Assembly (NCBI GenBank): GCA_029882525.1
Contig: JAOUKO010000001.1
Location: forward strand, 241 to 64,240
Source of the DNA: Candidatus Aminicenantes bacterium
GTDB lineage: Bacteria; Acidobacteriota; Aminicenantia; Aminicenantales; Aminicenantaceae
Length of the DNA: 64,000 nucleotides
Direction: 5' to 3'
This document shows, piece by piece, positions 4,435 to 59,385 of the stretch. Numbering within the stretch: the stretch's first letter is position 1; every line of letters begins with the position of its first letter. The notes beneath the pieces are model-generated. The model was not told the DNA's origin, searched no databases, and saw nothing but the letters and a program-made list of their open reading frames with translations. Made by a program: the position numbers and the translations under genes.

Positions 4435-4637
4435 ACCTTGAACCGTTCCTTAGCCGTTAAGTAGCCTGAATGGCACTAGCGGCAGGTTGAATACAGTATT
4501 GAGGGGGCACATAACGACAGGCCCCGTCCCGCTTTCTATCCGCAATTTCGGCTCATCCACTTTACTTGAGAGACCATCTCAAATTCAGTGATAATGGAGT
4601 GCTCGGGCAGAATTCTTACCTCACGAAAGCACCTCTA

Positions 4638-4806
4638 TTTCCGTAATAATTAATAATGAAGGTGCAGTCTGTTACAGCGACGGTTCCCCTCCATCCTTGC
4701 CAAGACCCTCCCCCCCTCCTCCATGGGCTTCGGATGGAGAGGAACCGTCGCTGCACTTCCCCATTAGCTCAGATGTTTTCCTTATCACGGAAACAGAGAT
4801 GCTTGC
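4638..4806 (+). repeat. Family-A intergenic hairpin element, copy 1 (arms 4677-4696 / 4732-4751)
   Basis: Shares >80% identity with elements at 8608-8777, 12140-11779(-), 23905-24156, 37321-37500; inverted repeat gcgacggttcccctccatcc / ggatggagaggaaccgtcgc with conserved loop gccaagaccctccc..ccatgggcttc. Confidence 0.8.
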
Positions 4807-4815
4807 TTACCTTAC

Positions 4816-4844
4816 TTGAATTTTGAAAGCGATGTGTGTATAGT
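4816..4844 (+). promoter_or_regulatory. sigma-70-type promoter for ppdK (TTGAAT-17bp-TGnTATAGT)
   Basis: -35 TTGAAT 4816-4821, 17-bp spacer, extended -10 TGTGTATAGT ending 4844, 30 nt upstream of RBS GAGAGGAG. Confidence 0.5.
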
Positions 4845-4873
4845 TTTGGTTTAATTTAGAGAGGAGATTTAAG

Positions 4874-7603
4874 ATGGCAAAAAGACACGTGTACTTTTTC
4901 GGAAAAGATCGCGCCGAAGGCAACAGGGACATGAAGGAAATCCTCGGCGGGAAAGGAGCGAACCTGGCGGAGATGGCTGGGATCGGCCTGCCCGTTCCCC
5001 CTGGTTTTACCGTTTCCACCGATGTCTGCATCTCTTACTCTAAGCTGGGAAACAAAATCCCGCCTGAAGTGGAAAGAGAAATACTGGACAATTTGAAGAA
5101 ACTGGAGGATCAGACCGGGCAGAAATTCGGAGGAGAAGAGAATCCCCTCCTTGTCTCCGTTCGTTCAGGGGCCAAGTTTTCCATGCCCGGGATGATGGAT
5201 ACTGTCTTGAACCTGGGCCTGAATGACAAAACCCTCGAGACTTTGGCCAACAGGAGCGGTGACAGACGGTTTGCCCTGGACTGTTACCGCCGTTTGATAC
5301 ACATGTTTGGGGATGTCGTGCTGGGAGTCTCCAAAAAGAAATTTGAGGAGATCCTGAAGAAAAAGAAAGAGGAGAAAAAGGTTGTCCAGGATAATGAGCT
5401 TTCAGAGCATGCCCTTCAGGAGGTGATCGCTGACTACAAGCGATTGATTAAAAAAGAAACAGGAAAAGAGTTCCCTCAGGATGTCAAAGAGCAGCTGCTG
5501 ATGTCCATTTCTGCTGTGTTTGAATCCTGGAACAACCCTCGTGCCGTGACTTACCGCCGGTTGAATCACATCCCCGATGACCTGGGCACAGCTGTCAACG
5601 TCCAGCAGATGGTTTTCGGGAATATCGGTGAGGACTCGGCGACAGGAGTCGGTTTCACCAGGGACCCTGCGACAGGGGAAAAGGAACTTTACGGCGAATA
5701 TCTCTTCAACGCCCAGGGCGAAGACGTTGTGGCGGGCGTCCGAACTCCTTCTTCTCTGAAATCATTGGAGAAGGAAATGCCCTCTGCCTACAAGGAGCTC
5801 AGCGAGATCACCACCCGGTTGGAGAAGCATTACCAGGATGTTCAGGATTTCGAGTTCACCATCCAGGAAGGCAAGCTTTATATGCTTCAGACGAGAAGCG
5901 GCAAGAGGACAGGCTTGGCTGCGGTGAAGATAGCGGTGGACATGGTTGAGGAAGGCCTTGTCAGCAAAGAGCAGGCTCTTCTGATGGTGGAGCCCGAGGC
6001 TTTGAACCAGCTTCTTCATCCTGTCTTTGATGTGGCGGAAAAGCAGAAGCATGAAGTCCTTGCCCGGGGATTGGCGGCTTCACCGGGTGCGGCCGCAGGA
6101 CAGGTGGTCTTCACTGCCGAGGAGGCTGTGACCTGGGCCAAACAGGGAAAGAAGGTGATTCTGGTTCGGGAAGAGACATCCCCTGATGATATTCATGGAA
6201 TGAGCGCCTCCCAGGGGATTCTGACGGCTACGGGCGGCATGACCTCGCACGCGGCTGTAGTCGGACGGCAGATGGGAAAGCCGGCAGTGGTCGGATGCGG
6301 AAACATCAAGCCTGATGAGGAACAGAAATTCTTCACTGTGGGGAAGACCCGCTGCAAGGAAGGAGACTGGATTTCCATCGACGGGACCTTAGGGGAAGTA
6401 CTGGAAGGAAAGATCAAGACTCAACCCTCAGAGGTCATCCAGGTTGTCAGAGGGGGAAAAAAACCCGAAGAGTCAAGATTATACCAGGATTTCACAAAAT
6501 TCCTCTCCTGGGCGGATGAGGTGAGAAAGCTGGGAGTCAGAGCGAACTCGGATACTCCTGAGGATGCCCGGACAGCCCTCGCTTTTGGAGCAGAGGGAAT
6601 CGGGCTGGCCCGGACCGAGCACATGTTTTTCGAGAAGAAAAGGCTGCCTTTCATGAAAGAGATGATTCTCTCTCAGGAAGAGAATGAAAGGCGGAAAGCT
6701 CTGGATAATCTTTTGCCCTTCCAGAAAGAGGATTTCTACGGGCTGTTCAAGGCCATGAAAGGCCATCCGGTCACCATCCGCACGCTCGACCCGCCTCTCC
6801 ATGAATTTCTTCCCCGTAAGGAAGACCTCATGGTTGAGATGGCCGAACTGAAAGCCTCTGGAAGCAAAGACGAGAAAAAGATCAAAGAATTAGAGAAACT
6901 GCTCGAGCGGGTGAAAAGCCTCTCCGAGTTCAATCCCATGCTCGGCCACAGGGGTTGCCGTTTGGGAATCTCCTATCCCGAGATCATCGAAATGCAGGCG
7001 ACTGCCATTTTTGAGGCCGTCTGCCAGTTGCTCAAGGAAGGAGAGAAGGTCTATCCCGAGATCATGGTTCCGCTGGTGGGAACGAAGGAAGAGCTCGCTA
7101 ACCAGAAGCAGATCCTTCAGCGGGTGGCTGAAGAGGTGATGAAAAAGAACAAGGTCAAGGTGGACTATTCGATAGGCACCATGATCGAGATTCCAAGAGC
7201 AGCCATCACTGCTGATGAGATTGCCGAGGAGGCCGAGTTCTTCTCATTCGGGACCAATGACCTGACGCAAATGGTTTTCGGAGTCTCCCGGGATGATGGA
7301 GCTGAATTCCTTGCTTACTACATCGCCCACGGTATCTTGAAGAACAATCCCTTTGAGACCGTTGATGTCGATGGAGTGGGTGAGCTCATGAGATGGGCCG
7401 TAGAGAAAGGCCGGAAGACCAGGCCTGACCTAAAGATCGGGATCTGCGGTGTCCACGGAGGTGATCCCCGGTCCGTGTTCTTCTGTCATAAGATCGGCCT
7501 TAACTATGTGAGCTGTTCCGCCTACCAGGTTCCCATAGCTCGCCTGGCTGCGGCCCAGGTTGCATTGATGGAAAAGACCGGAGAAGTTCTGATCGGGGAA
7601 TAG
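4874..7603 (+). CDS. ppdK: pyruvate, phosphate dikinase
   Basis: 909 aa; N-terminal KRHVYFFGKD..GGKGANLAEM, central TGGMTSHAAVVGR phospho-histidine motif, C-terminal PEP-utilising domain. Confidence 0.9.
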   Translation: MAKRHVYFFGKDRAEGNRDMKEILGGKGANLAEMAGIGLPVPPGFTVSTDVCISYSKLGNKIPPEVEREILDNLKKLEDQTGQKFGGEENPLLVSVRSGAKFSMPGMMDTVLNLGLNDKTLETLANRSGDRRFALDCYRRLIHMFGDVVLGVSKKKFEEILKKKKEEKKVVQDNELSEHALQEVIADYKRLIKKETGKEFPQDVKEQLLMSISAVFESWNNPRAVTYRRLNHIPDDLGTAVNVQQMVFGNIGEDSATGVGFTRDPATGEKELYGEYLFNAQGEDVVAGVRTPSSLKSLEKEMPSAYKELSEITTRLEKHYQDVQDFEFTIQEGKLYMLQTRSGKRTGLAAVKIAVDMVEEGLVSKEQALLMVEPEALNQLLHPVFDVAEKQKHEVLARGLAASPGAAAGQVVFTAEEAVTWAKQGKKVILVREETSPDDIHGMSASQGILTATGGMTSHAAVVGRQMGKPAVVGCGNIKPDEEQKFFTVGKTRCKEGDWISIDGTLGEVLEGKIKTQPSEVIQVVRGGKKPEESRLYQDFTKFLSWADEVRKLGVRANSDTPEDARTALAFGAEGIGLARTEHMFFEKKRLPFMKEMILSQEENERRKALDNLLPFQKEDFYGLFKAMKGHPVTIRTLDPPLHEFLPRKEDLMVEMAELKASGSKDEKKIKELEKLLERVKSLSEFNPMLGHRGCRLGISYPEIIEMQATAIFEAVCQLLKEGEKVYPEIMVPLVGTKEELANQKQILQRVAEEVMKKNKVKVDYSIGTMIEIPRAAITADEIAEEAEFFSFGTNDLTQMVFGVSRDDGAEFLAYYIAHGILKNNPFETVDVDGVGELMRWAVEKGRKTRPDLKIGICGVHGGDPRSVFFCHKIGLNYVSCSAYQVPIARLAAAQVALMEKTGEVLIGE

Positions 7604-8473: not shown

Positions 8474-8607
8474 TCATTCCTCTATTACAAGGAATCTCTG
8501 CTTGGAGTCTATCATATCGTTCCTGTGTGTTCAATTCTATACGGTTTTAAATAGTTTTCACCAGTGTTCATTTCGAATCCGCGATTCTCGTTTTCCGGAA
8601 GCATCTT

Positions 8608-8777
8608 TTTTTCCGTGACAGTTAATAATGAAGGTGTAATCTGTCACGGTGCCGGTTCCCCTCCATCCTCGCCAAGACCCTCCCACCCTCCTTCATGGGC
8701 TTCGGATAGAGGGGAACCGGCGCCGCACTTCTCAATTGGTCGAATATTTCCCTCATCACGGAGATAGAGATGCTTTC
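8608..8777 (+). repeat. Family-A intergenic hairpin element, copy 2
   Basis: Aligns along its length with copy 1; stem mismatch displaced relative to copy 1 (stem preserved). Confidence 0.8.
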
Positions 8778-9207
8778 TCGTTTTCCTTGAAGTTTGACGT
8801 CCATCCAGGAGTGTGCTATTTTTCTTATTCTGAAGGATTTCCTCAGACCCGAGTTCCAAAAGGCCATGAACAGGTTTTTTTCCATGCTCTTAAACCTGAC
8901 ATCTTTAAGCAAGTCACTCCCTTGGAACAAAATCACTGCTCCTGAACTGGACTCCAAGCTGATCGAACGACTTAAGTCCCTCGGCTGCATCAAGGAGAGA
9001 TGAACGGGAGCAGCCCCCGAGAAATTTGATTTTAATTGATCTGCATCGTTTATTATTATAGAGATGTATGGAATGCGGGCTTGGACGGGTTGCCCAGACT
9101 GATGAGCGGCCTGAAATTCATCCTTTATCAGGTTGATTGATATAGATTCATCAAAATTTAAGCTTAGCTTTACGACCGCTGGTTTTTTTGTTATTTAATA
9201 TTGTCAC

Positions 9208-11778: not shown

Positions 11779-12140
11779 AAGCTTTTTGCGTGTTCTCTAT
11801 TTCCGTGATGAGGGAAACATCCCACCTAATGTAAACGCAGTAAATAAGGGTACAATCTCTGTGCGGCCTGGATGCCGCCCTCAACCCCCGGACCCCGAGG
11901 GAACCTGTCCCGTCGGTTCCCCCCGTCGGATAAGCCGACGAGTCCCCCCTCCGCTACGGGGGCGCAGGGGCGGCATCCAGGCCCGCTCAATAGAGGATGT
12001 CACACGAATTATTGCGTTAATATGAGTTGAGAAGTGCGGCGGCGGTTCCCCTCTATCCGAAGCCCATGAAGGAGGGGGGGAGGGTCTTGGCTGGGATGGA
12101 GAGGAATCGGAGTTTTAACAGATTACACCTCCATTAAAAC
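11779..12140 (-). repeat. Composite repeat: family-A element (copy 3) interrupted by GC-rich B-module (approx 11829-12020)
   Basis: Reverse complement aligns with copy 2 up to cacttctcaa, then with the 37120-37313 B-module, then with the family-A tail ...gggatgtttccctcatcacgg. Confidence 0.75.
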
Positions 12141-12152
12141 CTCAAGAGCATT

Positions 12153-12734
12153 CTAGGCTTCCTTAGGGCGGCTAAGCATCCTGATCCCGACAAAAGAGTA
12201 ATCCACTGCAGAGAGAACGGTGAAAATAAGTGTCAGGAGATAGAGCCAGATGAGCAGCGGGAATGAAACCTGTCTGGTGTTGAGGAAAAGGACGATGAGA
12301 ATGACCATGACCTGGAGGACAGTGCAACTTTTTCCGAGAAGGGTGGGCAGAAAGCTTTTTTGGCCTCTAAGTAAATAGAGGATGAAGGCGGCAGAGACGA
12401 TGAGCAGATCCCGGCCGATAACAGTTAGGGTCAGCCAGAGAGGAATGACGTTCGGAGAGTTCAGGGAAGGGATGGTCAGGATAATGAAGGAGGCGGTCAT
12501 CAGGAGTTTGTCCGCGGCTGGGTCCAGGAAGGCTCCTATTTTTGTTTTCATATGCCAGATCCGGGCCGTGAACCCGTCCAGGACGTCCGTGAAGCCAGCA
12601 AAAAGAAAGACAACGAATGCTTCGGGAGTCTTCCTCTTGACCATCAAGAACAGGAAGACGGGAATGAGGAGTATTCTCAAGATGCTGAGAAGGTTGGGCG
12701 GGTTAAGGACTGTGTTTTTCTTTTCTCTATTCAT
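12153..12734 (-). CDS. pgsA: CDP-alcohol phosphatidyltransferase (phosphatidylglycerophosphate synthase-like)
   Basis: 193 aa, DG..AR.....T..G...D...DK motif, 4-6 TM helices. Confidence 0.65.
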   Translation of the reverse strand: MNREKKNTVLNPPNLLSILRILLIPVFLFLMVKRKTPEAFVVFLFAGFTDVLDGFTARIWHMKTKIGAFLDPAADKLLMTASFIILTIPSLNSPNVIPLWLTLTVIGRDLLIVSAAFILYLLRGQKSFLPTLLGKSCTVLQVMVILIVLFLNTRQVSFPLLIWLYLLTLIFTVLSAVDYSFVGIRMLSRPKEA

Positions 12735-19326: not shown

Positions 19327-19606
19327 AGGAACATTTCCAAATCCGTGATGAAAGAATGATTTTGGAAATCCCCTCGCTCCCTTCAGATTTTTAACGCCAT
19401 TCCTTCACCGCCCTCTGCGGCGGTCTCAAAACTGCGCACTTCAACGTTAAGCTCAAAAGGAATATCCGAACTATCATCTCACATCTCCCTTTGATTCTCT
19501 TCTGCTCAAACATTTCGACCGGCCGGAAGGCTTCCCTTGAGGGCGTTTCAGTAAGGCTAAATCTTCAAGGTCGCTTCGGATTTTTCCAAAATCATTTCCA
19601 TCCGTC
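19327..19606. repeat. Family-B MITE copy (TIR GGAAC..GGAAATC..CGCTCC..GATTTTTAACGCC)
   Basis: Ends match the 40-bp terminal inverted repeats of the 31705-32103 element; internal similarity to 31740-31990. Confidence 0.6.
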
Positions 19607-23795: not shown

Positions 23796-23904
23796 TCAGG
23801 AGTGAGAAGCTTCTTCTATAAAAAAGAAATGGAAAAAATTATTACTACCTTAATCGCAATCATCAGAAATGTCAAGTTGAGGCATTGGCATGTCAGCATC
23901 TCTC

Positions 23905-24156
23905 TCTCCTTGACAGCTGATTATGAAGGTGTAGTCGTTAGCAGCGCCGGTTCCCCTCCATTCAAGCCAAAATCCTTCCCTCCTTCATGGGCTTCGGATG
24001 GAGAGGAACCGCCGCCGCCCTTCTCAACTCATATTAATGCAATCATTCGTTTGACATCCTCTACTGAGTGGACCTGGATGCCGCACAGAGATTGTAACCT
24101 TATTTACTGCGTTTACATGAGGCCAGATGGTTCTCTCACCAGGGAAATGCTTCCGA
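23905..24156 (+). repeat. Family-A element copy 4 with truncated B-module insertion (approx 24037-24113)
   Basis: Hairpin arms ccggttcccctccattc / ggatggagaggaaccg; B-module ends catattaatgcaat...ttactgcgtttacat inserted at same point as in the 11779-12140 copy. Confidence 0.75.
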
Positions 24157-24362
24157 TTCGCATTTCAAGATTCCCGATCATGCTCTCTTCGCTTGTGACT
24201 TCAGGTTGGATTGACTTTGAATCGATCATCGCGTAACATGAGTGGGAGTCAGGTTTCGGGGCTACACTGGGATCAGTCCTTATCATCCAGAAGCCTGGAA
24301 ACTCAGCGCCTGATAAGGTGTTGACTTTATCGGCCAAGCCCGACCTCAACGGAGATAAAAGG

Positions 24363-25694
24363 ATGTTTGATCAGTTGTCGAGCCGTCTTCAAAAAGTGAT
24401 GAAGTTTCTCCGAGGTGAGGGGAAAATCACTGAAAAAAATATGGCTGAAGCGCTCAAGATGATTCGTATGGGCTTTCTGGAGGCTGATGTCAATTATCGG
24501 GTGGTGAAAGAGTTTGAGGAAAGCATCAAGGTCAAGGCTTTGGATCAGAAAGTCCTCATGAGCCTGACTCCGGCCCAGCAGGTCATCAAGATCGTTAGGG
24601 ATGAGCTGACTTTCCTCTTGGGACAGGATGTTAAAAAGCTGACATTTGCCAGCCATCCTCCCTCCATCTTCATGCTGGTCGGGCTTCAGGGCTCGGGCAA
24701 AACCACTACCTGTGGCAAGCTGGGCAAGTGGGTACTGACTTTAAAGAAGAGTCCTCTTCTCGTTTCTTTCGACCTGAAAAGGCTGGCTGCTCAGGAGCAG
24801 TTGAAGATGATCGCCAGCATGCTCAAACTTCCTTTTTATGAGATGACCAAGGAGCAAATGGCTTCACCTTCTGATGCGCTTAAAGAGCTATTGAAGTTCA
24901 CTGAGAACAGAGGTTATGACACCCTGATCGTGGATACTGCCGGGAGACTCCATATTGATGAAGAGCTCATGAATGAGCTCTGGATGGTGAAAGATGTTCT
25001 CAAGCCCACTGAGTTGATCTATGTGGGAGATTCTATGACTGGTCAGGATGCTGTGAAAAGCGCCCAGCTTTTCGAGGAAAAAATAGGGTTGACATCGGTC
25101 ATTTTGAGCAAGCTAGACGGAGACGCCAGGGGGGGTGCTGCCCTGTCCATCGTGTCCGTGACCGGGAAGCCCATCAAATTTATCGGGGTAGGTGAGAAGT
25201 TCGACAAACTCGAGGTTTTTCACCCAGACCGGATGGCATCACGAATACTGGGGATGGGAGACATCTTGAGCTTAATCGAGAAGGCTGAGGAAGAAGCTGA
25301 CCTGGAAGAGGCAGAAGCCCTGGCTCGCAAGTTGAAAAGACAGGAACTGACCTTCGAAGACTTTAAAAAACAGCTTGTTCAGATGAAAAAAATGGGATCT
25401 TTGTCCCAATTCTTGAATCTTTTGCCTCAAAGCGGACCTTTTAAGAAGATGGCCCAGGTCAGCATCGATGACAGGAAGATAATTCATTTCGAAGCCATCA
25501 TCAACTCGATGACCAAGGAAGAGAGAGAAAACCCGAAAATAATAGACGGGAGCCGCCGATCCAGGATAGCAAAGGGCAGCGGGAGGCCTGTTTCTGAAGT
25601 CAACCAGTTGCTGAAGCAGTTTGCCGAGATGAAAAAAATGATGAAAAGATCTCAATTCCAAAAGCTTATTTCTTCTTTACCCTCATCTCATTAG
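24363..25694 (+). CDS. ffh: signal recognition particle protein Ffh
   Basis: N domain MFDQLS.RLQ, G domain GLQGSGKTT, DTAGR, M domain Met-rich C-terminus; upstream in-frame Met at 24318 less likely. Confidence 0.9.
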   Translation: MFDQLSSRLQKVMKFLRGEGKITEKNMAEALKMIRMGFLEADVNYRVVKEFEESIKVKALDQKVLMSLTPAQQVIKIVRDELTFLLGQDVKKLTFASHPPSIFMLVGLQGSGKTTTCGKLGKWVLTLKKSPLLVSFDLKRLAAQEQLKMIASMLKLPFYEMTKEQMASPSDALKELLKFTENRGYDTLIVDTAGRLHIDEELMNELWMVKDVLKPTELIYVGDSMTGQDAVKSAQLFEEKIGLTSVILSKLDGDARGGAALSIVSVTGKPIKFIGVGEKFDKLEVFHPDRMASRILGMGDILSLIEKAEEEADLEEAEALARKLKRQELTFEDFKKQLVQMKKMGSLSQFLNLLPQSGPFKKMAQVSIDDRKIIHFEAIINSMTKEERENPKIIDGSRRSRIAKGSGRPVSEVNQLLKQFAEMKKMMKRSQFQKLISSLPSSH

Positions 25695-28799: not shown

Positions 28800-31664
28800 A
28801 TGGGGACTGAAAGAGAGAGAGTTAAAATCCTGGAGCAAGCGGAGAGAAGCGTAAAGCGGGGAAAACTCCAGGAAGCCATTAATGAGTACTTGAAGCTCTT
28901 AGACTTCGATGCCCAAGATGTAAACGTCAGGAACCTCCTGAGCGACCTCTATCTCCGGGCAAATCAAAGGGACAGAGCGATAGAGGAAATGTATAAAGTG
29001 GCCAGCTATTACGAAGGAAGAGGCATGTATTCCCAGTCCATGGCCGTTTATAAAAAGATCAACAAATTGAATCCCGGAAACATTGAATCCAGCATGAAAC
29101 TCGCCGACCTTTACTATACCCAGGGATTTCTCTCTGAAGCCAAGGCAGAATATTCGAAGATTGCCAGGGGCTTGATGAAGAATCACCGGACAAAGGAAGC
29201 CATTTTTCTGTATGAGAAGCTCCTGAAGCTGGATAGAAAAGATGTTCAGACATGTTTGACTTTGGCCGATCTTTATACTCGAGGGGGAGAAGTTGACAAA
29301 GCCGTGGACAGGCTCAATGACGTGGCCGAATTCAGGATCCGGGATAATTCGCTGAAGGAAGCCCATGAAATCCTTAAAAGAGCCCAAAAGATTAAAGCTG
29401 AGGATTCGAGGACTTTTTCCAACCTGGTGTCCATCCTTAAAAAAGAGAAAAAGACCAAGGAGGCTCGCAAGCTTATCGATGAAGTCCTTCAGAAAAAAAA
29501 GGAAGATGTGACTGCACTCAGGCTTTTGGGGAACCTGCATTTTGATGAGGGTGATTTTGAGAGGGCTGAAGTCGTATTCTCTCAGGTCATCGCCCTAAGG
29601 TCTAAAGATGTCGAAGCAAGAGTGAAGCTGGGCCGAATCTCCATCTTCAAAGACAACCTTGATAAGGCTTTTAAATTTTACGAACCTTTGGTTGAGAGCT
29701 TGATCAAGAAAGGGAAGCCGGAAAAGGCCATCGGGCTTCTCGGGCTCATTCTTGCTTCCAAGAAAGCTCATCTGCCGACTTTAAAATCCTTGGCTTCTAT
29801 CTATAAAACGATAGACCAGAGAAAGAATCTCGAGATCGTTTACCGCGTTCTTCTGGATGAATACCGGAGAGATAATAATAAGAAAGAATATGCGTCTATT
29901 CTGGGTGAGCTTGTCGAGATAAATCCTGAAGATAAGGAGTTAGCGAACCAGTACACACTCTTGAAGGGAGGCGGTGCAATCCCTGAGGTGGCGAGAGAGC
30001 CTGAGGTGGAGAAGGCAGCGTTAGAGGAGGAAGCGCGAAAAGCCGCCGAAGAGGACGCCAAAAAAGCAGAAGAGGAACGTTTGAGGGCTGAGGAACAAGT
30101 CAGGCAATTGGGTGAAGAAAAGAGACGTGCTGAAGAAGAGCGGTTGAAAGCCGAAGATGACGCTAAAAAAGCAGAAGAGGAACGTTTGAGGGCCGAAGAG
30201 GAGGCTAAAAGAGTAGAGGAGGAGCGGTCGAAAGCTGAAGGGGAGGCGCGAAAAGCCGTCGAAGAAGAAGCCCTGAGAGCCGCCGAGAAGGAAGCGAGGA
30301 AGAGAGTCGAAGAAGAGGCCCGGAAAGCAGAAGAAGCTGCCCAGAGGGCAGAGCAGGCGGCCCGAAAGGCTGCCGAAGAGGAAGCCAGACGTGCAGTCGA
30401 GGAAGAAGCCAGGAGTCGGGCCGAGGAGCTAGCCGAACGAGCCGAAGCAGAAAAGAAACGTGCGGAAGAAGAACGTTTGCGTGCTGAGGAGGCAGTGAGG
30501 AAAGCGGAGGAAGAGAGAAGGAGAGCGGAGGAGGAACGTTTTAAGGCCGAGCAAGAAGCAAAGCGCTTGGAGGAAGAAAAAAGAAGAGCCGAAGAAGAAC
30601 GAAGAAAAGCCGAAGAAGGAGCCCCGAGAGCCGAAGAGGAGCGGATGCGGATCGAGGAAGAGACCAGGCGCATGGCCGATGAGGAGGCGCGAAAAGTCGC
30701 CGAAGAAGAAGCCCGGAGAGCCGCCGAAGACGAAGCCAAACGAGCCGCTGATGAAGAACGAAAAAGGATGGAAGCTTTGGAAGCGGCCCACGTGTCCACC
30801 GAAGAGATAAGAGAGTTAGAGGAGATTATCGAGGAGGAAAAGGAGGAAGAACCTGCCGCAGCTCCAGAGGGGTCTGATGAGATGCTGGAGATGAACCTGG
30901 CCCAGGCAGACCTCTACATTAACCAAGGTCTACTCCGGAATGCGAAGAGAATCCTCGAGAATTTGCGCATAAATTTTCCCAACAATCCGAGAATAGAAGA
31001 GAAGCTTTCAGCACTGGGACAGGTGAGCACTCAGGTCAGCGTCGACGAGATTCTTCAACGGGTGACCGAGGTTTCTGAGAAGGAAAGCGAATTAATTGGC
31101 AAGAGAGGAGTGGCTAAAGAGATTCCAGAGCAACCAAAAGAGGCAACGAAGGAAACGGCTGCTCCAGCAGAGAAGGCCTCAATCCCGGAGGAAAAAGAGA
31201 GGAAAGTTGAAAAGAAAGAAATCCCCCTTAAGAAATTAGAGGATAAAGAGGAAGAAGTCAAGAAGACAGCCGAGAAGGAGGTAGCGGCCAAAGAGGATAA
31301 GATGGACCTCTTTCATTCTGGATTTTCATTTCTTGAGAAAGGCGAGTTTGACCAGGCCATCGAAATATTTAAGCAGGCGTCCAAGGATGAGAGCTTAAGA
31401 GAGGAATGTTTCCATGCCCTTGGTCAGTGTTACAAACAGAAAGATGAATATTTAGAAGCAGCAAAATGGCTGAAGAAAGCCCAGGAGCTGACCGTCGAAG
31501 GATCCGATCAATTTCTGGCTTTGAGTTATGAGTTGGCGTCGCTCTATGAAGAAGCCAAGGAACTGGAGAAAGCCTTGGATCTCTACGAAGATATAAAGGA
31601 ATGGGATGCGAAATACAGGGATATCAGGAAGAAGACCAAGGCTTTAAAAAAGAGCATTAAATAA
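28800..31664 (+). CDS. TPR-repeat protein with central ~250-aa E/R/K/A-rich single-alpha-helix region
   Basis: 954 aa; N- and C-terminal TPR units; residues about 395-650 almost entirely AEEERLRAEEEAKR-type repeats; start overlaps rnhB stop (TAAGATG). Confidence 0.6.
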   Translation: MGTERERVKILEQAERSVKRGKLQEAINEYLKLLDFDAQDVNVRNLLSDLYLRANQRDRAIEEMYKVASYYEGRGMYSQSMAVYKKINKLNPGNIESSMKLADLYYTQGFLSEAKAEYSKIARGLMKNHRTKEAIFLYEKLLKLDRKDVQTCLTLADLYTRGGEVDKAVDRLNDVAEFRIRDNSLKEAHEILKRAQKIKAEDSRTFSNLVSILKKEKKTKEARKLIDEVLQKKKEDVTALRLLGNLHFDEGDFERAEVVFSQVIALRSKDVEARVKLGRISIFKDNLDKAFKFYEPLVESLIKKGKPEKAIGLLGLILASKKAHLPTLKSLASIYKTIDQRKNLEIVYRVLLDEYRRDNNKKEYASILGELVEINPEDKELANQYTLLKGGGAIPEVAREPEVEKAALEEEARKAAEEDAKKAEEERLRAEEQVRQLGEEKRRAEEERLKAEDDAKKAEEERLRAEEEAKRVEEERSKAEGEARKAVEEEALRAAEKEARKRVEEEARKAEEAAQRAEQAARKAAEEEARRAVEEEARSRAEELAERAEAEKKRAEEERLRAEEAVRKAEEERRRAEEERFKAEQEAKRLEEEKRRAEEERRKAEEGAPRAEEERMRIEEETRRMADEEARKVAEEEARRAAEDEAKRAADEERKRMEALEAAHVSTEEIRELEEIIEEEKEEEPAAAPEGSDEMLEMNLAQADLYINQGLLRNAKRILENLRINFPNNPRIEEKLSALGQVSTQVSVDEILQRVTEVSEKESELIGKRGVAKEIPEQPKEATKETAAPAEKASIPEEKERKVEKKEIPLKKLEDKEEEVKKTAEKEVAAKEDKMDLFHSGFSFLEKGEFDQAIEIFKQASKDESLREECFHALGQCYKQKDEYLEAAKWLKKAQELTVEGSDQFLALSYELASLYEEAKELEKALDLYEDIKEWDAKYRDIRKKTKALKKSIK
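30040..30640 (+). repeat. Imperfect ~105-bp tandem repeats inside CDS 28800..31664
   Basis: aaaaaagcagaagaggaacgtttgagggc recurs at 30061, 30166, variant at 30461 and 30531; generates the Ser/Ala-rich antisense ORF artifact. Confidence 0.6.
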
Positions 31665-31704: not shown

Positions 31705-32103
31705 GGAACGACAGGGAAATCGAATCGCTCCAGTCGGATTTTTAACGCCATTCCCTCCCCATCCTTCTCGGTCCTGCGGAACTCCGCATGTCTATCTTAT
31801 CTCACGCCTGAAGCTCTATCTTTTTTCAATCCCGCTTGATCAACCACTCCGTGCTCAAACAGTCCTCGGACCCGACTGTGTCGGTTTCCCTCGAAGGACA
31901 ACATCGTTGCGGAGAAACGATGTTGGGGGGATCCAAGGGGGTATGTCCCCTTGGTCGCAGGACGCATGTCCGAGAAGGGGAGGCAGCGAGTCGCAAGGAA
32001 GCGAGCGAGCGTTGGAAGGGGGAAGGCAGAGCGCTTTCCCCTCCAAGGAGGCTCGGGAAGGCTAAATCCTCCGATGTCGCTCTGGTGATTTCCCTGTTGT
32101 TCC
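31705..32103. repeat. Family-B MITE, full-length copy with ~40-bp terminal inverted repeats
   Basis: Left end GGAACGACAGGGAAATCGAATCGCTCCAGTCGGATTTTTAACGCC; right end reverse complement GGAACAACAGGGAAATCACCAGAGCGACATCGGAGGATTTAGCC; no coding capacity. Confidence 0.7.
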
Positions 32104-32162: not shown

Positions 32163-32262
32163 TAAAGGGACAGGCTAGTTATAAGGGACTGTCCCTTTCA
32201 GTCCTTTTGATATGATAGAGAGGGACTGTCCCCTTTCGCAAAATTAGCCTGTCCTTTTTTTC
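32163..32262. repeat. Family-C nested palindrome element (GGGACAGGCT - 2x GGGACTGTCCC - AGCCTGTCC - T7)
   Basis: Read directly; a second copy with same architecture at 59260-59385. Confidence 0.7.
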
Positions 32263-35746: not shown

Positions 35747-36931
35747 TCAAGCCTGAGGGGAGGCGGAAAATGTACCCCTGGTGATGAGTTTTTTATCGGA
35801 CATCATCGGCTTTCCCTTGGCGAAGGAATCCGTGAGATGGAGGTCTTTATCGAGCAGGATGAGGTCAGCGTCCTTTCCGACTTTGATTTCTCCCTTAGAT
35901 TGAAGCTTGTAAAAGACAGCAGGACTGGTGGAAAATAGCTTGACTGCATCCTGGAGCTCAATTATGTTTTTATGCACCAGGTGGCGGAAATTTTTCAGGA
36001 GACTTTTCTGGGTAGCAATAGCCAGGCCCTGAAGATTGCCTTTATCGTCGAAAACGGGGATGCTTCCGTTGCTGTCAGAGCTGACTGTAATCCGGGAAAG
36101 GGATGCCTTATTCTTCAGACAGAGCTGGATGGCTTTTCCGATGCTCACTTCACGATCGGCTTGAGCCTCGGGATCATCACCCGCTGTTAAGTCAAAACAG
36201 CCTCCTTCCTTGTTGAAAGCAATGGCCTCCTCGAGGAGTTCGGGATTGCGGTTGACATGGGTCGGGATAACCTGAGTGCAGGGGATTTCTGTTTCTTTCA
36301 TCATTCGAAAGAGCATTTCCAGCCTGCGCGGTCCGTCACCCAGATGGAGGTGGAGAATCCCTGCTTTTCCACCGAGCATTCCTCCGACCCGGCATTCTGC
36401 AGCCAGACGGGAGAACTCTTCGAAAGTGGGCTGGGAAGAGCGGTGGTCAGAGATGGCGATTTCACCGGCCCCGATGACTTTATCAATGAGGATCAGGTCG
36501 GAGCGAATGCTGCCTGTGAGTGTCACCGGCGGAATTTGATAGGAGCCAGAGTAGATATAGGTCGTGATCCCTTCCAACTCAAGGCCTCTTGCTTTGGCTA
36601 AAAGGGATTCCATATGGCGGGTTGTTCCATCCGTTCCCAGGCAGCCTATGACAGTCGTCACTCCGCTGGAGATGATGTCTTCTACTGTGATTTCAGGAGC
36701 CCTGGTTGCCGGCCCTCCTTCCCCGCCGCCGCCCAGGATGTGGACATGGCTGTCGATCAGACCGGGAATGATGATTTTCTCAGAGGCATCGACGACTTCA
36801 TATTCCATTCCTTTGATCTCAATCTGGCCGGGCTCATTCACGGCACCGATCTTATCGCCTAAAATGAGGACATCTTTTTTTCCCTCGGGTTCGGGTGAAA
36901 ATACCAAACCCTGGCTGATGAGAGTCAACAT
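35747..36931 (-). CDS. iadA: isoaspartyl dipeptidase (beta-aspartyl peptidase, amidohydrolase superfamily)
   Basis: PGLIDSHVHILGGGGEGG metal-binding motif and overall IadA-like length/pattern. Confidence 0.75.
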   Translation of the reverse strand: MLTLISQGLVFSPEPEGKKDVLILGDKIGAVNEPGQIEIKGMEYEVVDASEKIIIPGLIDSHVHILGGGGEGGPATRAPEITVEDIISSGVTTVIGCLGTDGTTRHMESLLAKARGLELEGITTYIYSGSYQIPPVTLTGSIRSDLILIDKVIGAGEIAISDHRSSQPTFEEFSRLAAECRVGGMLGGKAGILHLHLGDGPRRLEMLFRMMKETEIPCTQVIPTHVNRNPELLEEAIAFNKEGGCFDLTAGDDPEAQADREVSIGKAIQLCLKNKASLSRITVSSDSNGSIPVFDDKGNLQGLAIATQKSLLKNFRHLVHKNIIELQDAVKLFSTSPAVFYKLQSKGEIKVGKDADLILLDKDLHLTDSFAKGKPMMSDKKLITRGTFSASPQA

Positions 36932-37117
36932 CTTTTCCTCCGATTAAAGACTCCATGGGTGAGTATCATATTTTACTGGCTAAGTTATCATGGAATATTC
37001 TTATTTTCAAGATGAGTGACTCGACTTTTCATTCCTCAGGCCCTTTTAATTCAGGAAAAGAACATTCATAAGGAGCGAATGGAAACATCACAAATGCCGT
37101 AAAAGAAAGAAGCTAAT

Positions 37118-37500
37118 ATTAACGCAATAATTCATGTGACATCCTATCTTGGGCGGCATGAATGCCGCCCTCAAGCCCCCGTAGAGGAGGAGGGACCCGT
37201 CGGTTTATCCGACGGGGGGAACCGACGGGACAGGTTCCCTCGGGGGCCGGGGGCTGAGGGCAGCTTCAGGCCGCCTAGAGATTGTAACCTTATTTACTGC
37301 GTTGACATTAGTAAATGGAGCCTCTCGATCTCCCGTGACTTTTAATAATTAAGATGTAATCTGTTACCGCGCCGGTTCCCCTCCATCCAAGCCAAGACCC
37401 TCCCACCCCCCCACCATGGGCTTCGGATGGAGAGGAACCGTCGCCCCACTTCTCCCTTAGGTCAGATGTTTCCTTCATTGCGGAATTAGTGACGCTTGCA
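37118..37500 (+). repeat. Composite repeat: GC-rich B-module (37120-37313) followed by family-A hairpin element copy 5 (37321-37500)
   Basis: B-module bounded by ttaACGCAATAATTC ... TTATTTACTGCGTTGACAtta (imperfect TIR AACGCAaTAA / TTAtTTacTGCGTT, TTA flank both sides); A part aligns with copies 1-4. Confidence 0.75.
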
Positions 37501-37564
37501 GAGTGAATTAGGTTTTTGAATTTTAGTGAATTTTCAATTAAAATAATGGTGCGGGATTTCCAGA

Positions 37565-38323
37565 ATGGAAATGTATGAGAAAGAGCTGAAAAGATTCGAG
37601 CCCATCATTCAGAGGCTCAGCGATATTGCTCTGGTCGGGAAGAAAATCGTGATACAAGGAAAGGAGAATTTTATCCAGCACGGCCCGAATATCATTATCG
37701 GGAATCATATCGGCACATTCAAAGACATCGCCATCCTGTTGAAAGTGGTTCCCCGCCCTGTTTTTTTCACGGCCAACAAAATGCTTTTCGACAAGCACGA
37801 TTTCAATTTTCTCATCCGGAAGCATCTCCAGAGACACCTGAAGAATTTCGGGCTTTTTATGGATTTGATCCTTAGCCCTTTGAAATCCCTTTTTGTCAAT
37901 TATTTCGTGGCAAACATCAGGAAGGTCGGGGCCATTCCAGTGGACTTGGAGAATAAGAAAAGGATTGCCATGGAAAAGTGCCATGAATACCTGAAGAGGG
38001 GGAGAGCCATCATCGCCCTCCAAGGCTGGGGACGGGTGATGAAAAAAGCACCCAATCCTTATGTGCATAATTTCAAGAAAGGGACAGCCATCCTTTCCTA
38101 CAACCTGCAGATGGATGAAGGGATATCTGTTCCAGTGACGCCTATTGCTATGTTCGGAACACAGGTCCCCTTCCTGGTTCCCACCACTATCAAGGTGAAC
38201 GTCGGCAGGCCGATGTATATCTCCGATTATCTGGGAAGGGATTTTTCTGAAAGCGTGGAGAGATTCAGAGAAGCTCTTGAGGGAAGTGTGAAAACGCTTA
38301 TCTTCGATATTCTCAAGTGGTAG
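37565..38323 (+). CDS. putative acyltransferase (PlsC/lysophospholipid acyltransferase-like), weak
   Basis: 252 aa; GNHIGTFKD resembles HX4-5D acyltransferase motif; otherwise weak. Confidence 0.35.
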   Translation: MEMYEKELKRFEPIIQRLSDIALVGKKIVIQGKENFIQHGPNIIIGNHIGTFKDIAILLKVVPRPVFFTANKMLFDKHDFNFLIRKHLQRHLKNFGLFMDLILSPLKSLFVNYFVANIRKVGAIPVDLENKKRIAMEKCHEYLKRGRAIIALQGWGRVMKKAPNPYVHNFKKGTAILSYNLQMDEGISVPVTPIAMFGTQVPFLVPTTIKVNVGRPMYISDYLGRDFSESVERFREALEGSVKTLIFDILKW

Positions 38324-59251: not shown

Positions 59252-59259
59252 GGAAAAAA

Positions 59260-59385
59260 GGGGACAGGCTCTTTTTTCAAAAGAAATGGGACAGTCCCTA
59301 TTTTTCCTAATAAAGGGATTAAAAGGGACAGTCCCAAAAAAAGAGCCTGTCTCCTTTTCTCCAAAAAATTAGCCTGTCCCCTTTT
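59260..59385. repeat. Family-C nested palindrome element, copy 2, between convergent genes
   Basis: GGGACAGGCT, GGGACAGTCCC x2, AGCCTGTC, AGCCTGTCCCC in the same order as 32163-32262; abuts stop codons of both flanking genes. Confidence 0.7.

What the first reader, a model, noticed from the sequence alone, without database searches (positions are those of the whole stretch)
37118..37500. Nested repeats: GC-rich B-module MITE with TTA/TA target duplication inserted into family-A elements at two different positions
A ~195-bp GC-rich module appears at 37120-37313. It starts aacgcaataattc.tgtgacatcct, has a GGCGGCATgaATGCCGCC hairpin and G/C-rich helices, and ends cagagattgtaaccttatttactgcgttgacat. 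It is flanked by TTA on both sides and lies just upstream of family-A copy 5. The same module sits inside the tail of family-A copy 3 (12020-11829, minus strand) and, internally deleted, inside copy 4 (24037-24113). Its ends are imperfect inverted repeats (AACGCAaTAA ... TTAtttaCTGCGTT). That points to a non-autonomous TA-targeting (IS630/Tc1-like) MITE that has repeatedly landed in or next to family-A elements. The pattern implies an active transposase elsewhere in the genome and some insertion-site preference.
Basis: seen in the sequence. Interest (0 to 1): 0.55.

Follow-up and report, generated by a model that had tools for sequence, protein, structure and literature searches.

The report
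TA-duplicating MITE nested in another MITE
The GC-rich "B module" is an ordinary small non-coding jumping element that inserts at the TA of CTAG sites in uncultured sediment bacteria. One copy landed inside a second small mobile element and has since been carried around with it.

Summary
Three B copies lie in the window: 37116-37308 (193 bp), 12023-11829 on the minus strand (195 bp) and 24031-24118 (88 bp, internally deleted).

With about 29 further insertion sites from public metagenomes, the ends resolve to 5'-ATATTAACGCAATAA...TTACTGCGTTTACAT-3'. This is a 15-nt terminal inverted repeat with 12 matches. It is flanked by a duplicated TA inside a CTAG target (C at -3 in 28/32 copies, G at +3 in 28/32). 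That is the published IS630 target signature, so the MITE reading holds.

- The duplication is TA, not TTA. The 5' TTA lies inside the inverted repeat.
- Copies 3 and 4 are one insertion, not two. They share the same position and the same mutated flank (CTC), and the A::B composite then moved as a unit. A related genome has the empty site with a single copy of its 9-bp duplication.
- B prefers CTAG, not family A. 24 of 29 sites have no A within about 1 kb.
- No transposase was found, and there is no sign of current activity.

Family A is itself a MITE, with a ~20-nt inverted repeat and a 9-10-bp duplication. The host is a Candidatus Aminicenantes MAG. This is a new member of a known kind, of low to moderate interest.

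The parts
37116..37308 (+). B copy 5: full-length MITE, 193 bp, GC-rich palindromic core
   Evidence: It is 95-96% identical to copies in L033, L019 and L049. It folds into a rod-like hairpin.
37113..37115 (+). 5' half of the CTAG target: C plus the 5' copy of the TA duplication (37114-37115)
   Evidence: C at -3 in 28/32 copies.
37309..37311 (+). 3' copy of the TA duplication (37309-37310) plus the G of the CTAG target
   Evidence: TAG follows the element in 28/32 copies. This end was not imposed by the search pattern.
37116..37130 (+). 5' terminal inverted repeat, ATATTAACGCAATAA
   Evidence: Consensus of 32 copies; 12 of 15 positions match the reverse complement of the 3' end.
37294..37308 (+). 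3' terminal inverted repeat, TTACTGCGTTGACAT
11829..12023 (-). B copy 3: full-length (195 bp), inserted in the tail of family-A copy 3. The 5' duplication is mutated, TA to TC (12025-12024); the 3' TA is at 11828-11827.
24031..24118 (+). B copy 4: 88-bp derivative with about 107 bp deleted from the core at a GCCGC microhomology. Same position in family A and same CTC flank as copy 3.
37317..37498 (+). Family-A copy 5 (182 bp), not occupied by B. B5 ends 8 nt upstream, within the 10 nt that form A5's likely 5' duplication copy.
   Evidence: A5-empty sites in L082 and L086.
11788..12162 (-). Family-A copy 3 carrying B (A::B composite, 375 bp)
   Evidence: It is 93% identical over 299 nt to the composite in L032, which lies in an unrelated context.
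23892..24154 (+). Family-A copy 4 carrying the deleted B (A::B composite, 263 bp)
   Evidence: Orthologous empty site in L079 and L080.
23883..23891 (+). 5' copy of the 9-bp duplication of the A4::B composite (CATTGGCAT). The 3' copy, GATTCGCAT, is at 24155-24163.
   Evidence: The empty site in L079 holds a single CATTGGCAT.
4625..4805 (+). Family-A copy 1 (181 bp), unoccupied. 10-bp duplication CTTACCTCAC (4615-4624) / CTTACCTTAC (4806-4815).
8597..8776 (+). Family-A copy 2 (180 bp), unoccupied. Perfect 10-bp duplication CTCGTTTTCC at 8587-8596 and 8777-8786.

Best explanation
B is a miniature inverted-repeat transposable element (MITE): a 193-bp non-coding DNA transposon with no transposase of its own.

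**Mechanism (inferred).** A DDE transposase of the IS630/Tc1-mariner type, encoded elsewhere, binds the ~15-nt terminal inverted repeats (ATATTAACGCAATAA / ATGTAAACGCAGTAA). It cuts the element out and pastes it into the TA of a CTAG site. Repair of the staggered cut duplicates the TA.

**Core.** The GC-rich interior is a near-palindrome. It makes the element fold back on itself and makes it prone to internal deletion (88-bp and 150-180-bp derivatives) and possibly inversion.

**History in this window (inferred).** There were two B insertions.
- One went into a CTAG in the tail of a family-A element. Family A is itself a MITE, with a ~20-nt inverted repeat and a 9-10-bp duplication. The A::B composite was then copied by A's own transposition, giving A3, A4 and a copy in L032. 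B later lost its core in A4.
- The other went into a CTAG 6 nt upstream of A5.

**Shown:** copies, ends, target consensus, TA duplication, paralogous empty sites for B, an orthologous empty site for A::B, and in-situ deletion.

**Inferred:** the transposase family and the order of events.
For: 1. **Dispersed copies.** One copy each was found in two GTDB genomes. 47 metagenome stretches matched the 5' end. These give 32 usable complete copies at about 29 distinct sites. They share nothing with the window except the repeat.
2. **Ends and target.** The consensus ends form a terminal inverted repeat, 12/15 matches. C is at -3 in 28/32 copies and TAG follows the 3' end in 28/32. The 5' TA was imposed by the search pattern for the metagenome loci; the flanking C and the whole 3' TAG were not.
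3. **IS630 signature.** IS630 has a 2-bp duplication in a CTAG target (PMC2577343, Table 1, citing Tenzen & Ohtsubo 1991).
4. **Empty-site test.** Deleting B and leaving one TA makes A3, A4 and the L032 composite align across the junction with the unoccupied copies A1, A2, A5, L049 and L014. The base count between CACTTCTC and GG(T/C) fits only if one TA belongs to the target.
5. **Shared ancestry of the composites.** A3, A4 and L032 share the CTC flank mutation. A4 and L032 share further variants.
6. **A::B moved as a unit.** L079 and L080 have the empty site, and the window has a 9-bp duplication there.
7. **In-situ deletion.** L004 (86 bp) and L012 (193 bp) have identical flanks.
8. **Non-coding and strand-neutral.** Copy lengths differ by non-multiples of three. 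There is no orientation bias toward flanking genes: 12 sense vs 14 antisense downstream of genes, 12 vs 15 upstream. There is no Rfam match.
9. **Subfamilies.** Sequence subfamilies typical of transposon bursts are visible.
Against: - No autonomous element was found. No TA-flanked inverted-repeat pair 0.8-1.8 kb apart surrounds an ORF, no second matching end lies at IS distance, and there is no Tc1/IS630 'YSPxLNPIE' motif in about 700 kb of held sequence. No transposase is among the window's genes. The family assignment therefore rests on the target and duplication signature alone.
- No clean orthologous empty site was obtained for B by itself. At the B5 locus, related lineages carry larger rearrangements.
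- The 75-80% GC core in a 48% GC genome is unusual for a MITE.
- There is a weak excess of double-sided changes that keep the hairpins: 6 pairs against 2.2 +/- 1.2 in shuffles. Plain neutral decay does not explain this.
Confidence: 0.85

Rival explanations
1. B is a MITE, but it is mobilised by a transposase outside the IS630 family. One candidate is an IS5-family subgroup with short TA- or TNA-type duplications at YTAR-like targets.
For: No cognate transposase was found, so the family is inferred only from the TA/CTAG signature. From my own recollection of ISfinder, not checked here, some IS5-family subgroups make 2-4-bp duplications at CTAG-like sites.
Against: The duplication is strictly 2 bp (TA) in a CTAG context across about 29 sites. 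That is the documented IS630 pattern (PMC2577343). A 3-bp or 4-bp duplication is excluded: the flanks read CTA...TAG, and the base count at paralogous empty sites fits one TA.
Confidence: 0.1
2. B, or at least its GC-rich core, is a functional structured RNA or regulatory module. It might act as an mRNA-stabilising or processing hairpin, or as a protein-binding site, with its spread favoured by selection rather than being purely selfish.
For: Folding is very stable. The core is GC-rich in a 48% GC genome. Six base pairs show double-sided changes that keep pairing, against 2.2 +/- 1.2 in shuffles, with 0 of 500 shuffles reaching 6. Every B copy is intergenic or abuts a stop codon.
Against: - There is no orientation bias relative to neighbouring genes.
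- There is no Rfam match, even at E <= 10.
- The RNAalifold covariation term is about zero.
- The core is repeatedly lost: 84-88-bp derivatives at six sites, including an in-situ case.
- The tested structure was derived from the same sequences, which inflates the pairing statistics (control b).
Confidence: 0.07
3. B and family A are parts of one larger conserved element or ncRNA, not one element inserted in another.
For: In the window every B copy touches an A copy.
Against: - A occurs without B at A1, A2, A5, L049 and L031.
- B occurs without A at 24 of 29 sites.
- B lies at two different positions relative to A.
- Excising B restores a standard A copy.
Confidence: 0.01

Closest known systems
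RUP (repeat unit of pneumococcus), the MITE attributed to IS630-Spn1 in Streptococcus pneumoniae
   Same: A small non-coding element with terminal inverted repeats that inserts at TA. It is attributed to an IS630-family transposase and is often found inside other mobile elements (PMC2229807). B likewise inserts at TA and sits inside another mobile element, family A.
   Different: RUP is 107 bp with short repeats, and its ends match a known IS in the same genome. B is 193 bp with a GC-rich palindromic core. It shows a strict CTAG context. No partner IS has been identified. B comes from an unrelated phylum (Aminicenantes). I made no sequence comparison between RUP and B.
Correia / NEMIS elements of Neisseria
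   Same: TA duplication, terminal inverted repeats, whole-element stem-loop, and long and short size classes that differ by an internal segment (about 155 vs 107 bp) (PMC2229807). B has 193-bp and about 86-bp classes.
   Different: Correia elements have about 24-bp repeats and an IHF site in the long form. I did not test B for these. B's short form arises recurrently by in-situ deletion (L004 vs L012).
IS630 (Shigella sonnei) and the IS630/Tc1-mariner superfamily
   Same: 2-bp TA duplication within a CTAG target (PMC2577343, Table 1). ISY100, a bacterial member of the same Tc1/mariner/IS630 family, needs only its transposase and its terminal inverted repeats to transpose in vitro (PMC2170065 abstract).
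   Different: B encodes nothing. No matching transposase gene is available, so membership of the family as a derivative is inferred, not shown.

Membership tests
IS630/Tc1-mariner-derived MITE | 2-bp TA target-site duplication | tested here: met
   TA flanks both ends in 29-31 of 32 copies. Leaving one TA after in-silico excision restores colinearity with empty A copies. The 5' TA was imposed by the query for the metagenome loci; the 3' TA was not.
IS630/Tc1-mariner-derived MITE | Target preference for TA inside CTAG, as for IS630 itself | tested here: met
   C at -3 in 28/32 copies and G at +3 in 28/32. IS630 target CTAG with a 2-bp duplication is listed in PMC2577343, Table 1.
IS630/Tc1-mariner-derived MITE | Terminal inverted repeats at the very ends | tested here: met
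   ATATTAACGCAATAA against ATGTAAACGCAGTAA, 12/15 matches, with weaker similarity further in (24/34).
IS630/Tc1-mariner-derived MITE | Small, non-coding, many dispersed copies at unrelated loci | tested here: met
   84-216 bp; lengths are not multiples of three; about 29 sites. No synteny with the window.
IS630/Tc1-mariner-derived MITE | A cognate IS630-family (DDE) transposase whose element has the same ends | tested here: inconclusive
   None was found in about 700 kb held or among the window's genes.
IS200/IS605-derived palindrome-associated element (PATE) | No terminal inverted repeats and no duplication. Insertion occurs 3' of a fixed tetra- or pentanucleotide on one side only (from my general knowledge of the family). 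| tested here: not met
   B has terminal inverted repeats, a TA duplication and symmetric CTA...TAG flanks.
REP/BIME elements (RAYT-associated) | 20-40-nt imperfect palindromes with a conserved GTAG head, usually in arrays of alternating orientation (PMC2817692 abstract and my general knowledge) | tested here: not met
   B is a single 193-bp unit with terminal inverted repeats and a duplication. Its internal GTAG lies in a hairpin loop, not at the head of a palindrome.
Described structured RNA family (Rfam) | A match to a covariance model at or near its gathering score | tested here: not met
   No match at gathering thresholds over the window. The best permissive hits have E >= 0.23 and score far below threshold.
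Family A as a MITE (the host element of the nesting) | Terminal inverted repeats, a duplication, and presence/absence polymorphism | tested here: met
   - About 20-nt repeat: GGAAGCATCTCTATTTCCGTGA / TCACGGAAATAGAGATGCTT.
- 10-bp duplications at A1 (9/10 match) and A2 (10/10).
- Orthologous empty site for A4 in L079 and L080.

The most novel reading that the evidence does not exclude
The GC-rich hairpin core of B, and perhaps the similar GC-rich hairpin of family A, may be a selected cargo rather than junk. It could be a stable RNA or DNA structure, or a protein-binding site, that these MITEs seed next to promoters and stop codons in Aminicenantes, so that the nested A::B composites spread ready-made regulatory modules.

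Hints in favour:
- An excess of double-sided pair changes.
- The contrast between the GC-rich core and the 48% GC genome.
- A copies abutting -35-like hexamers.
- B conserving stop codons on insertion.
Probability: 0.08. Interest if true: 0.5.

Novelty: new member of a known kind. Interest (0 to 1): 0.3.

Why it matters
The practical value is mainly for annotation and assembly.
- This MITE family and its host family A break metagenome assemblies. Many contigs end inside them.
- They generate spurious gene calls, such as the 69-aa ORF at 37136-37345 and the 144-aa ORF called across A4::B in L053 and L055.

Biologically, the finding documents an IS630-type MITE with a strict CTAG target in an uncultured phylum. 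It gives a clear bacterial example of one MITE hitch-hiking inside another. It also shows a neat neutrality trick: the element starts and ends with A/T, so insertion into a C-TAG stop codon leaves a TAA stop. None of this changes what is known about how such elements work.

Tried and rejected
1. **Known RNA family.** Rfam gathering and permissive searches over B and A found nothing meaningful. No tRNA or tmRNA is present.
2. **TTA as a 3-bp duplication.** Rejected. With TTA as the duplication the inverted repeats would not be terminal, and ATA upstream of the 5' TTA is conserved at all unrelated sites.
3. **Search for the parent IS.**
   - Second matching ends at IS distance: only chance hits. 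L020 3099 lies inside an ordinary ORF and L018 lies inside an MFS transporter.
   - TA-flanked 14-nt inverted pairs around ORFs: none.
   - Tc1/IS630 YSPxLNPIE motif screen over 700 kb: one chance hit, in an M1 peptidase.
   - IMG/VR scan with the 5' end: one chance match.
   - Literature search for the end sequences and for Zixibacteria MITEs: nothing.
   - Fetching an IS630 protein seed from Shigella plasmid pCP301: none in the first 50 kb, so I abandoned this route.
4. **Orthologous empty site for B5.**
   - Near-identical strains all carry it.
   - The L073 lineage has a 288-nt deletion between CTTTTAAT repeats that removed B together with A5's 5' end.
   - The L082 and L086 lineages lack A5 altogether.
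   - So there is no clean B-only empty site.
5. **Strand-specific function.** No orientation bias was found.
6. **First look-up of Ffh.** It failed because the GTG start was wrong. The ATG at 24363 is the recorded start.

Full report
**1. What is in the sequence**

The region 37113-37311 reads C-TA-[ATATTAACGCAATAATTCATGTGACATCC ... AGAGATTGTAACCTTATTTACTGCGTTGACAT]-TA-G. Both end motifs occur three times in the window: at 37119/37277 (+), 12020/11860 (-) and 24034/24087 (+). No match is expected in dinucleotide shuffles.

Family A is recognised by CATGGGCTTCGGATGGAGAGGAACCG. It has five copies, at 4722, 8694, 12068 (-), 23986 and 37415 (repeat families D3-D5 and I1-I9).

An alignment of the five A loci shows the following.
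- B is a block present after ...CACTTCTCAAC in A3 and A4.
- B is absent at that point from A1, A2 and A5.
- B is present upstream of A5.

**2. Copies elsewhere**

A scan of one genome per species found the B 3' end in two White Oak River estuary MAGs, labelled Zixibacteria SM1_73 and 'Bacteroides sp. SM23_62'.

A scan of JGI metagenomes with the 5' end plus TA found 47 stretches, mostly estuarine or sulfate-methane-transition-zone sediment contigs. About six are chance or unrelated matches.

Pairing 5' and 3' end motifs gave 35 non-redundant complete copies. Three of these are palindromic double hits in L034. The remaining 32 represent about 29 distinct insertion sites.

None of these loci shares anything with the window except the repeats.

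**3. Ends, target and duplication**

The consensus of the 32 copies is:

- 5' end: ...a-C-TA | ATATTAACGCAATAATTCGTGTGACATCCTCT
- 3' end, reverse-complemented: ...C-TA | ATGTAAACGCAGTAAATAAGGTTACAATCTCT

Twelve of the first 15 element positions match. That is a terminal inverted repeat, with weaker similarity further in.

Outside the element, position -3 is C in 28/32 copies and +3 is G in 28/32. TA follows the 3' end in 31/32. The 5' TA was part of the metagenome query, so it is uninformative for those loci. The C, and the entire 3' TAG, were not imposed.

The target is therefore CTAG with duplication of the central TA. This is the pattern listed for IS630: 2-bp duplication, CTAG target (PMC2577343, Table 1, citing Tenzen & Ohtsubo 1991).

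The 5' TTA is positions 4-6 of the inverted repeat, and the ATA before it is conserved at unrelated sites.

**4. Empty versus filled sites**

Unoccupied A copies read:
- A5: CACTTCTCCC-TTAGG-TCAGATG
- A1: ...CCATTAGC...
- L049: ...CCATTAGG...

A3 reads CACTTCTCAAC-TC[B]TA-GGTGGGATG. Keeping one TA gives AACTAGG, exactly colinear with CCTTAGG. Removing both TAs would leave it 2 nt short.

Flanks joined through a single TA align across the junction with A1, A2, A5, L049 and L014 at 81-87% identity over 120-146 nt, with at most a single 1-nt gap.

I could not obtain a clean orthologous empty site for B alone.
- All strains at least 99.4% identical to the window carry B at all three places.
- More distant lineages have larger differences at the B5 locus.

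**5. One insertion into A, then propagation of the composite**

A3, A4 and a third composite in L032 (4410-4708, 93% identical to window 11801-12097, in an unrelated context) all have B at the same A position. All three have the 5' duplication mutated to TC (CTC instead of CTA). A4 and L032 also share internal variants (AATCATTCGTTTGA).

Family A is itself a MITE.
- Its ends are GGAAGCATCTCTATTTCCGTGA... and ...TCACGGAAATAGAGATGCTT.
- A2 is flanked by a perfect 10-bp repeat, CTCGTTTTCC.
- A1 is flanked by CTTACCTCAC / CTTACCTTAC.

Two related genomes (GCA_975969015.1 and GCA_975902005.1; L079, L080) have the same accB-ffh intergenic region without A4::B. They read ...GGCATTGGCAT|TAAGCC.... The window has CATTGGCAT-[A4::B]-GATTCGCAT.

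The simplest history is one B insertion into an A copy that happened to carry CTAG, followed by spread of A::B through A's transposition. The window thus records two B insertion events: the A tail, and the CTAG 6 nt upstream of A5. It does not record three.

**6. Decay of the core**

B lengths cluster as follows.
- 190-197 bp: 18 copies.
- 150-180 bp: 7 copies.
- 84-88 bp: 6 copies.
- One copy is 216 bp.

L004 (86 bp) and L012 (193 bp) have identical flanks and the same upstream ORF. So the short form can arise in place. In A4 the deletion joins CCTGGAT|GCCGC... at a GCCGC microhomology.

L041 has the central ~125 bp inverted relative to its ends. This could be recombination between the internal inverted repeats, or an assembly artefact.

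The whole element folds into a rod: RNA -100.9 kcal/mol, z = -7.4; DNA z = -6.3.

**7. Is it an RNA?**

- There is no Rfam hit.
- The RNAalifold covariation term is about zero.
- Orientation relative to neighbouring genes is random: 12 vs 14 and 12 vs 15.
- A pair count gives 6 pairs with double-sided changes against 2.2 +/- 1.2 in shuffles (0 of 500 shuffles reach 6), and 0-3 in slid controls. This is a weak hint that the hairpins are maintained. However, the tested structure came from the same sequences.

I keep a functional-structure reading as a low-probability rival.

**8. Host and context**

Window proteins are recorded in NCBI as Candidatus Aminicenantes bacterium MAG proteins. The window matches ENA contig ERZ27296342:k141_515853 (73 kb) at 99.9-100%.

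All sizeable genes in the window are housekeeping genes: pyrimidine synthesis, PPDK, Ffh, ribosomal proteins, LytB, TrpRS and others. No transposase is present.

No IS with matching ends, and no IS630-type motif, was found in about 700 kb of held sequence. So the transposase family is inferred from the TA/CTAG signature only.

**9. Comparison and verdict**

B works like RUP and Correia/NEMIS elements: TA duplication, terminal inverted repeats, whole-element stem-loop, long and short forms, and insertion into other mobile elements (PMC2229807). It has the IS630 target signature.

It is a new family in a poorly studied phylum, not a new kind of element. The nesting and hitch-hiking, and the preservation of stop codons on insertion into C-TAG, are tidy but unsurprising consequences of the mechanism.

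- Interest: 0.3.
- Confidence that B is a TA-duplicating MITE: about 0.85-0.9.
- Confidence that its transposase is IS630-family: about 0.75.

Noticed in passing
window 4625-4805, 8597-8776, 11788-12162 (-), 23892-24154, 37317-37498: Family A is itself a MITE of about 180 bp. It has ~20-nt terminal inverted repeats (GGAAGCATCTCTATTTCCGTGA) and 9-10-bp target duplications, and it is absent from the orthologous ffh locus in L079 and L080. I did not identify which IS family mobilises it.
   Followed up: partly
window 4806-4850, 8777-8830, 37499-37545, 11790-11740 (-): All five A copies point toward the downstream gene. Their 3' duplication abuts or lies within about 10 nt of a -35-like hexamer of a good sigma-70-type promoter (A1: TTGAAT-17-TATAGT; A2: TTGACG-17-TATTTT; A5: TTGAAT-17-TAAAAT; A3: TTGCCT-17-TACTAT). 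A4 is about 50 nt away from one. Only three A copies (A1, A3 and the L032 composite) lie between tandem genes, where orientation is informative, so the bias is unproven.
   Followed up: partly
L012 4489-4491, L016 4132-4134, L021 6636-6638, L025 5326-5328, L030 8811-8813, L040 4035-4037: At six independent sites an ORF of 245-947 aa ends in a TAA made of the TA duplication plus the first A of B. B therefore inserted into a C-TAG stop codon and left a stop in place. In five of the six the gene runs into B's 3' end.
   Followed up: yes
L041 4697-4891: The central ~125 bp of this B copy is inverted relative to its ends. This is either recombination between the internal inverted repeats or an assembly artefact.
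   Followed up: no
L073 2174-2310; L012 about 5600-5700: A third GC-rich intergenic repeat (GGAGGGGGGAGTCAGTTCCCTCTCC...) occupies the amidohydrolase-acyltransferase spacer in the L073 lineage and recurs in L012. These genomes seem to hold several GC-rich hairpin repeat families.
   Followed up: no
window 36931-37565 compared with L082 1335-1501, L086 1263-1501 and L073 2081-2501: The same intergenic spacer is 166, 238, 420 or 633 nt long in four related lineages. The differences are all insertions and deletions of repeat elements. They include a 288-nt loss between CTTTTAAT direct repeats in L073.
   Followed up: partly
window 30021-30760 (inside ORF 28800-31664): A coding tandem repeat with 21-nt periodicity (Glu/Ala/Lys/Arg-rich) lies in a TPR protein. 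The protein is 919 aa in L051 and 954 aa in L052, so repeat number varies between strains. There is also a 34-nt difference at 31940-31975 between the window and L052.
   Followed up: no
window 24165-24362: The ~200 nt between A4 and the ffh start codon are conserved in the L079 and L080 lineage and follow a TTGACT-17-TAACAT promoter. This may be a leader or a small RNA. It had no Rfam match at gathering thresholds.
   Followed up: no
window 19364-19414 and 31715-31765; 32164-32237 and 59256-59385: Further short dispersed or inverted repeats are present (GGAAATC...TTTTTAACGCCATTCC; AAAAGGGGACAGGCTC...). They are unrelated to A or B.
   Followed up: no
window 37136-37345; L053 9440-9874; L055 1164-1598: ORFs that run through B or A::B are called as genes in public annotations (a 144-aa 'protein' across A4::B). 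These are almost certainly spurious.
   Followed up: no
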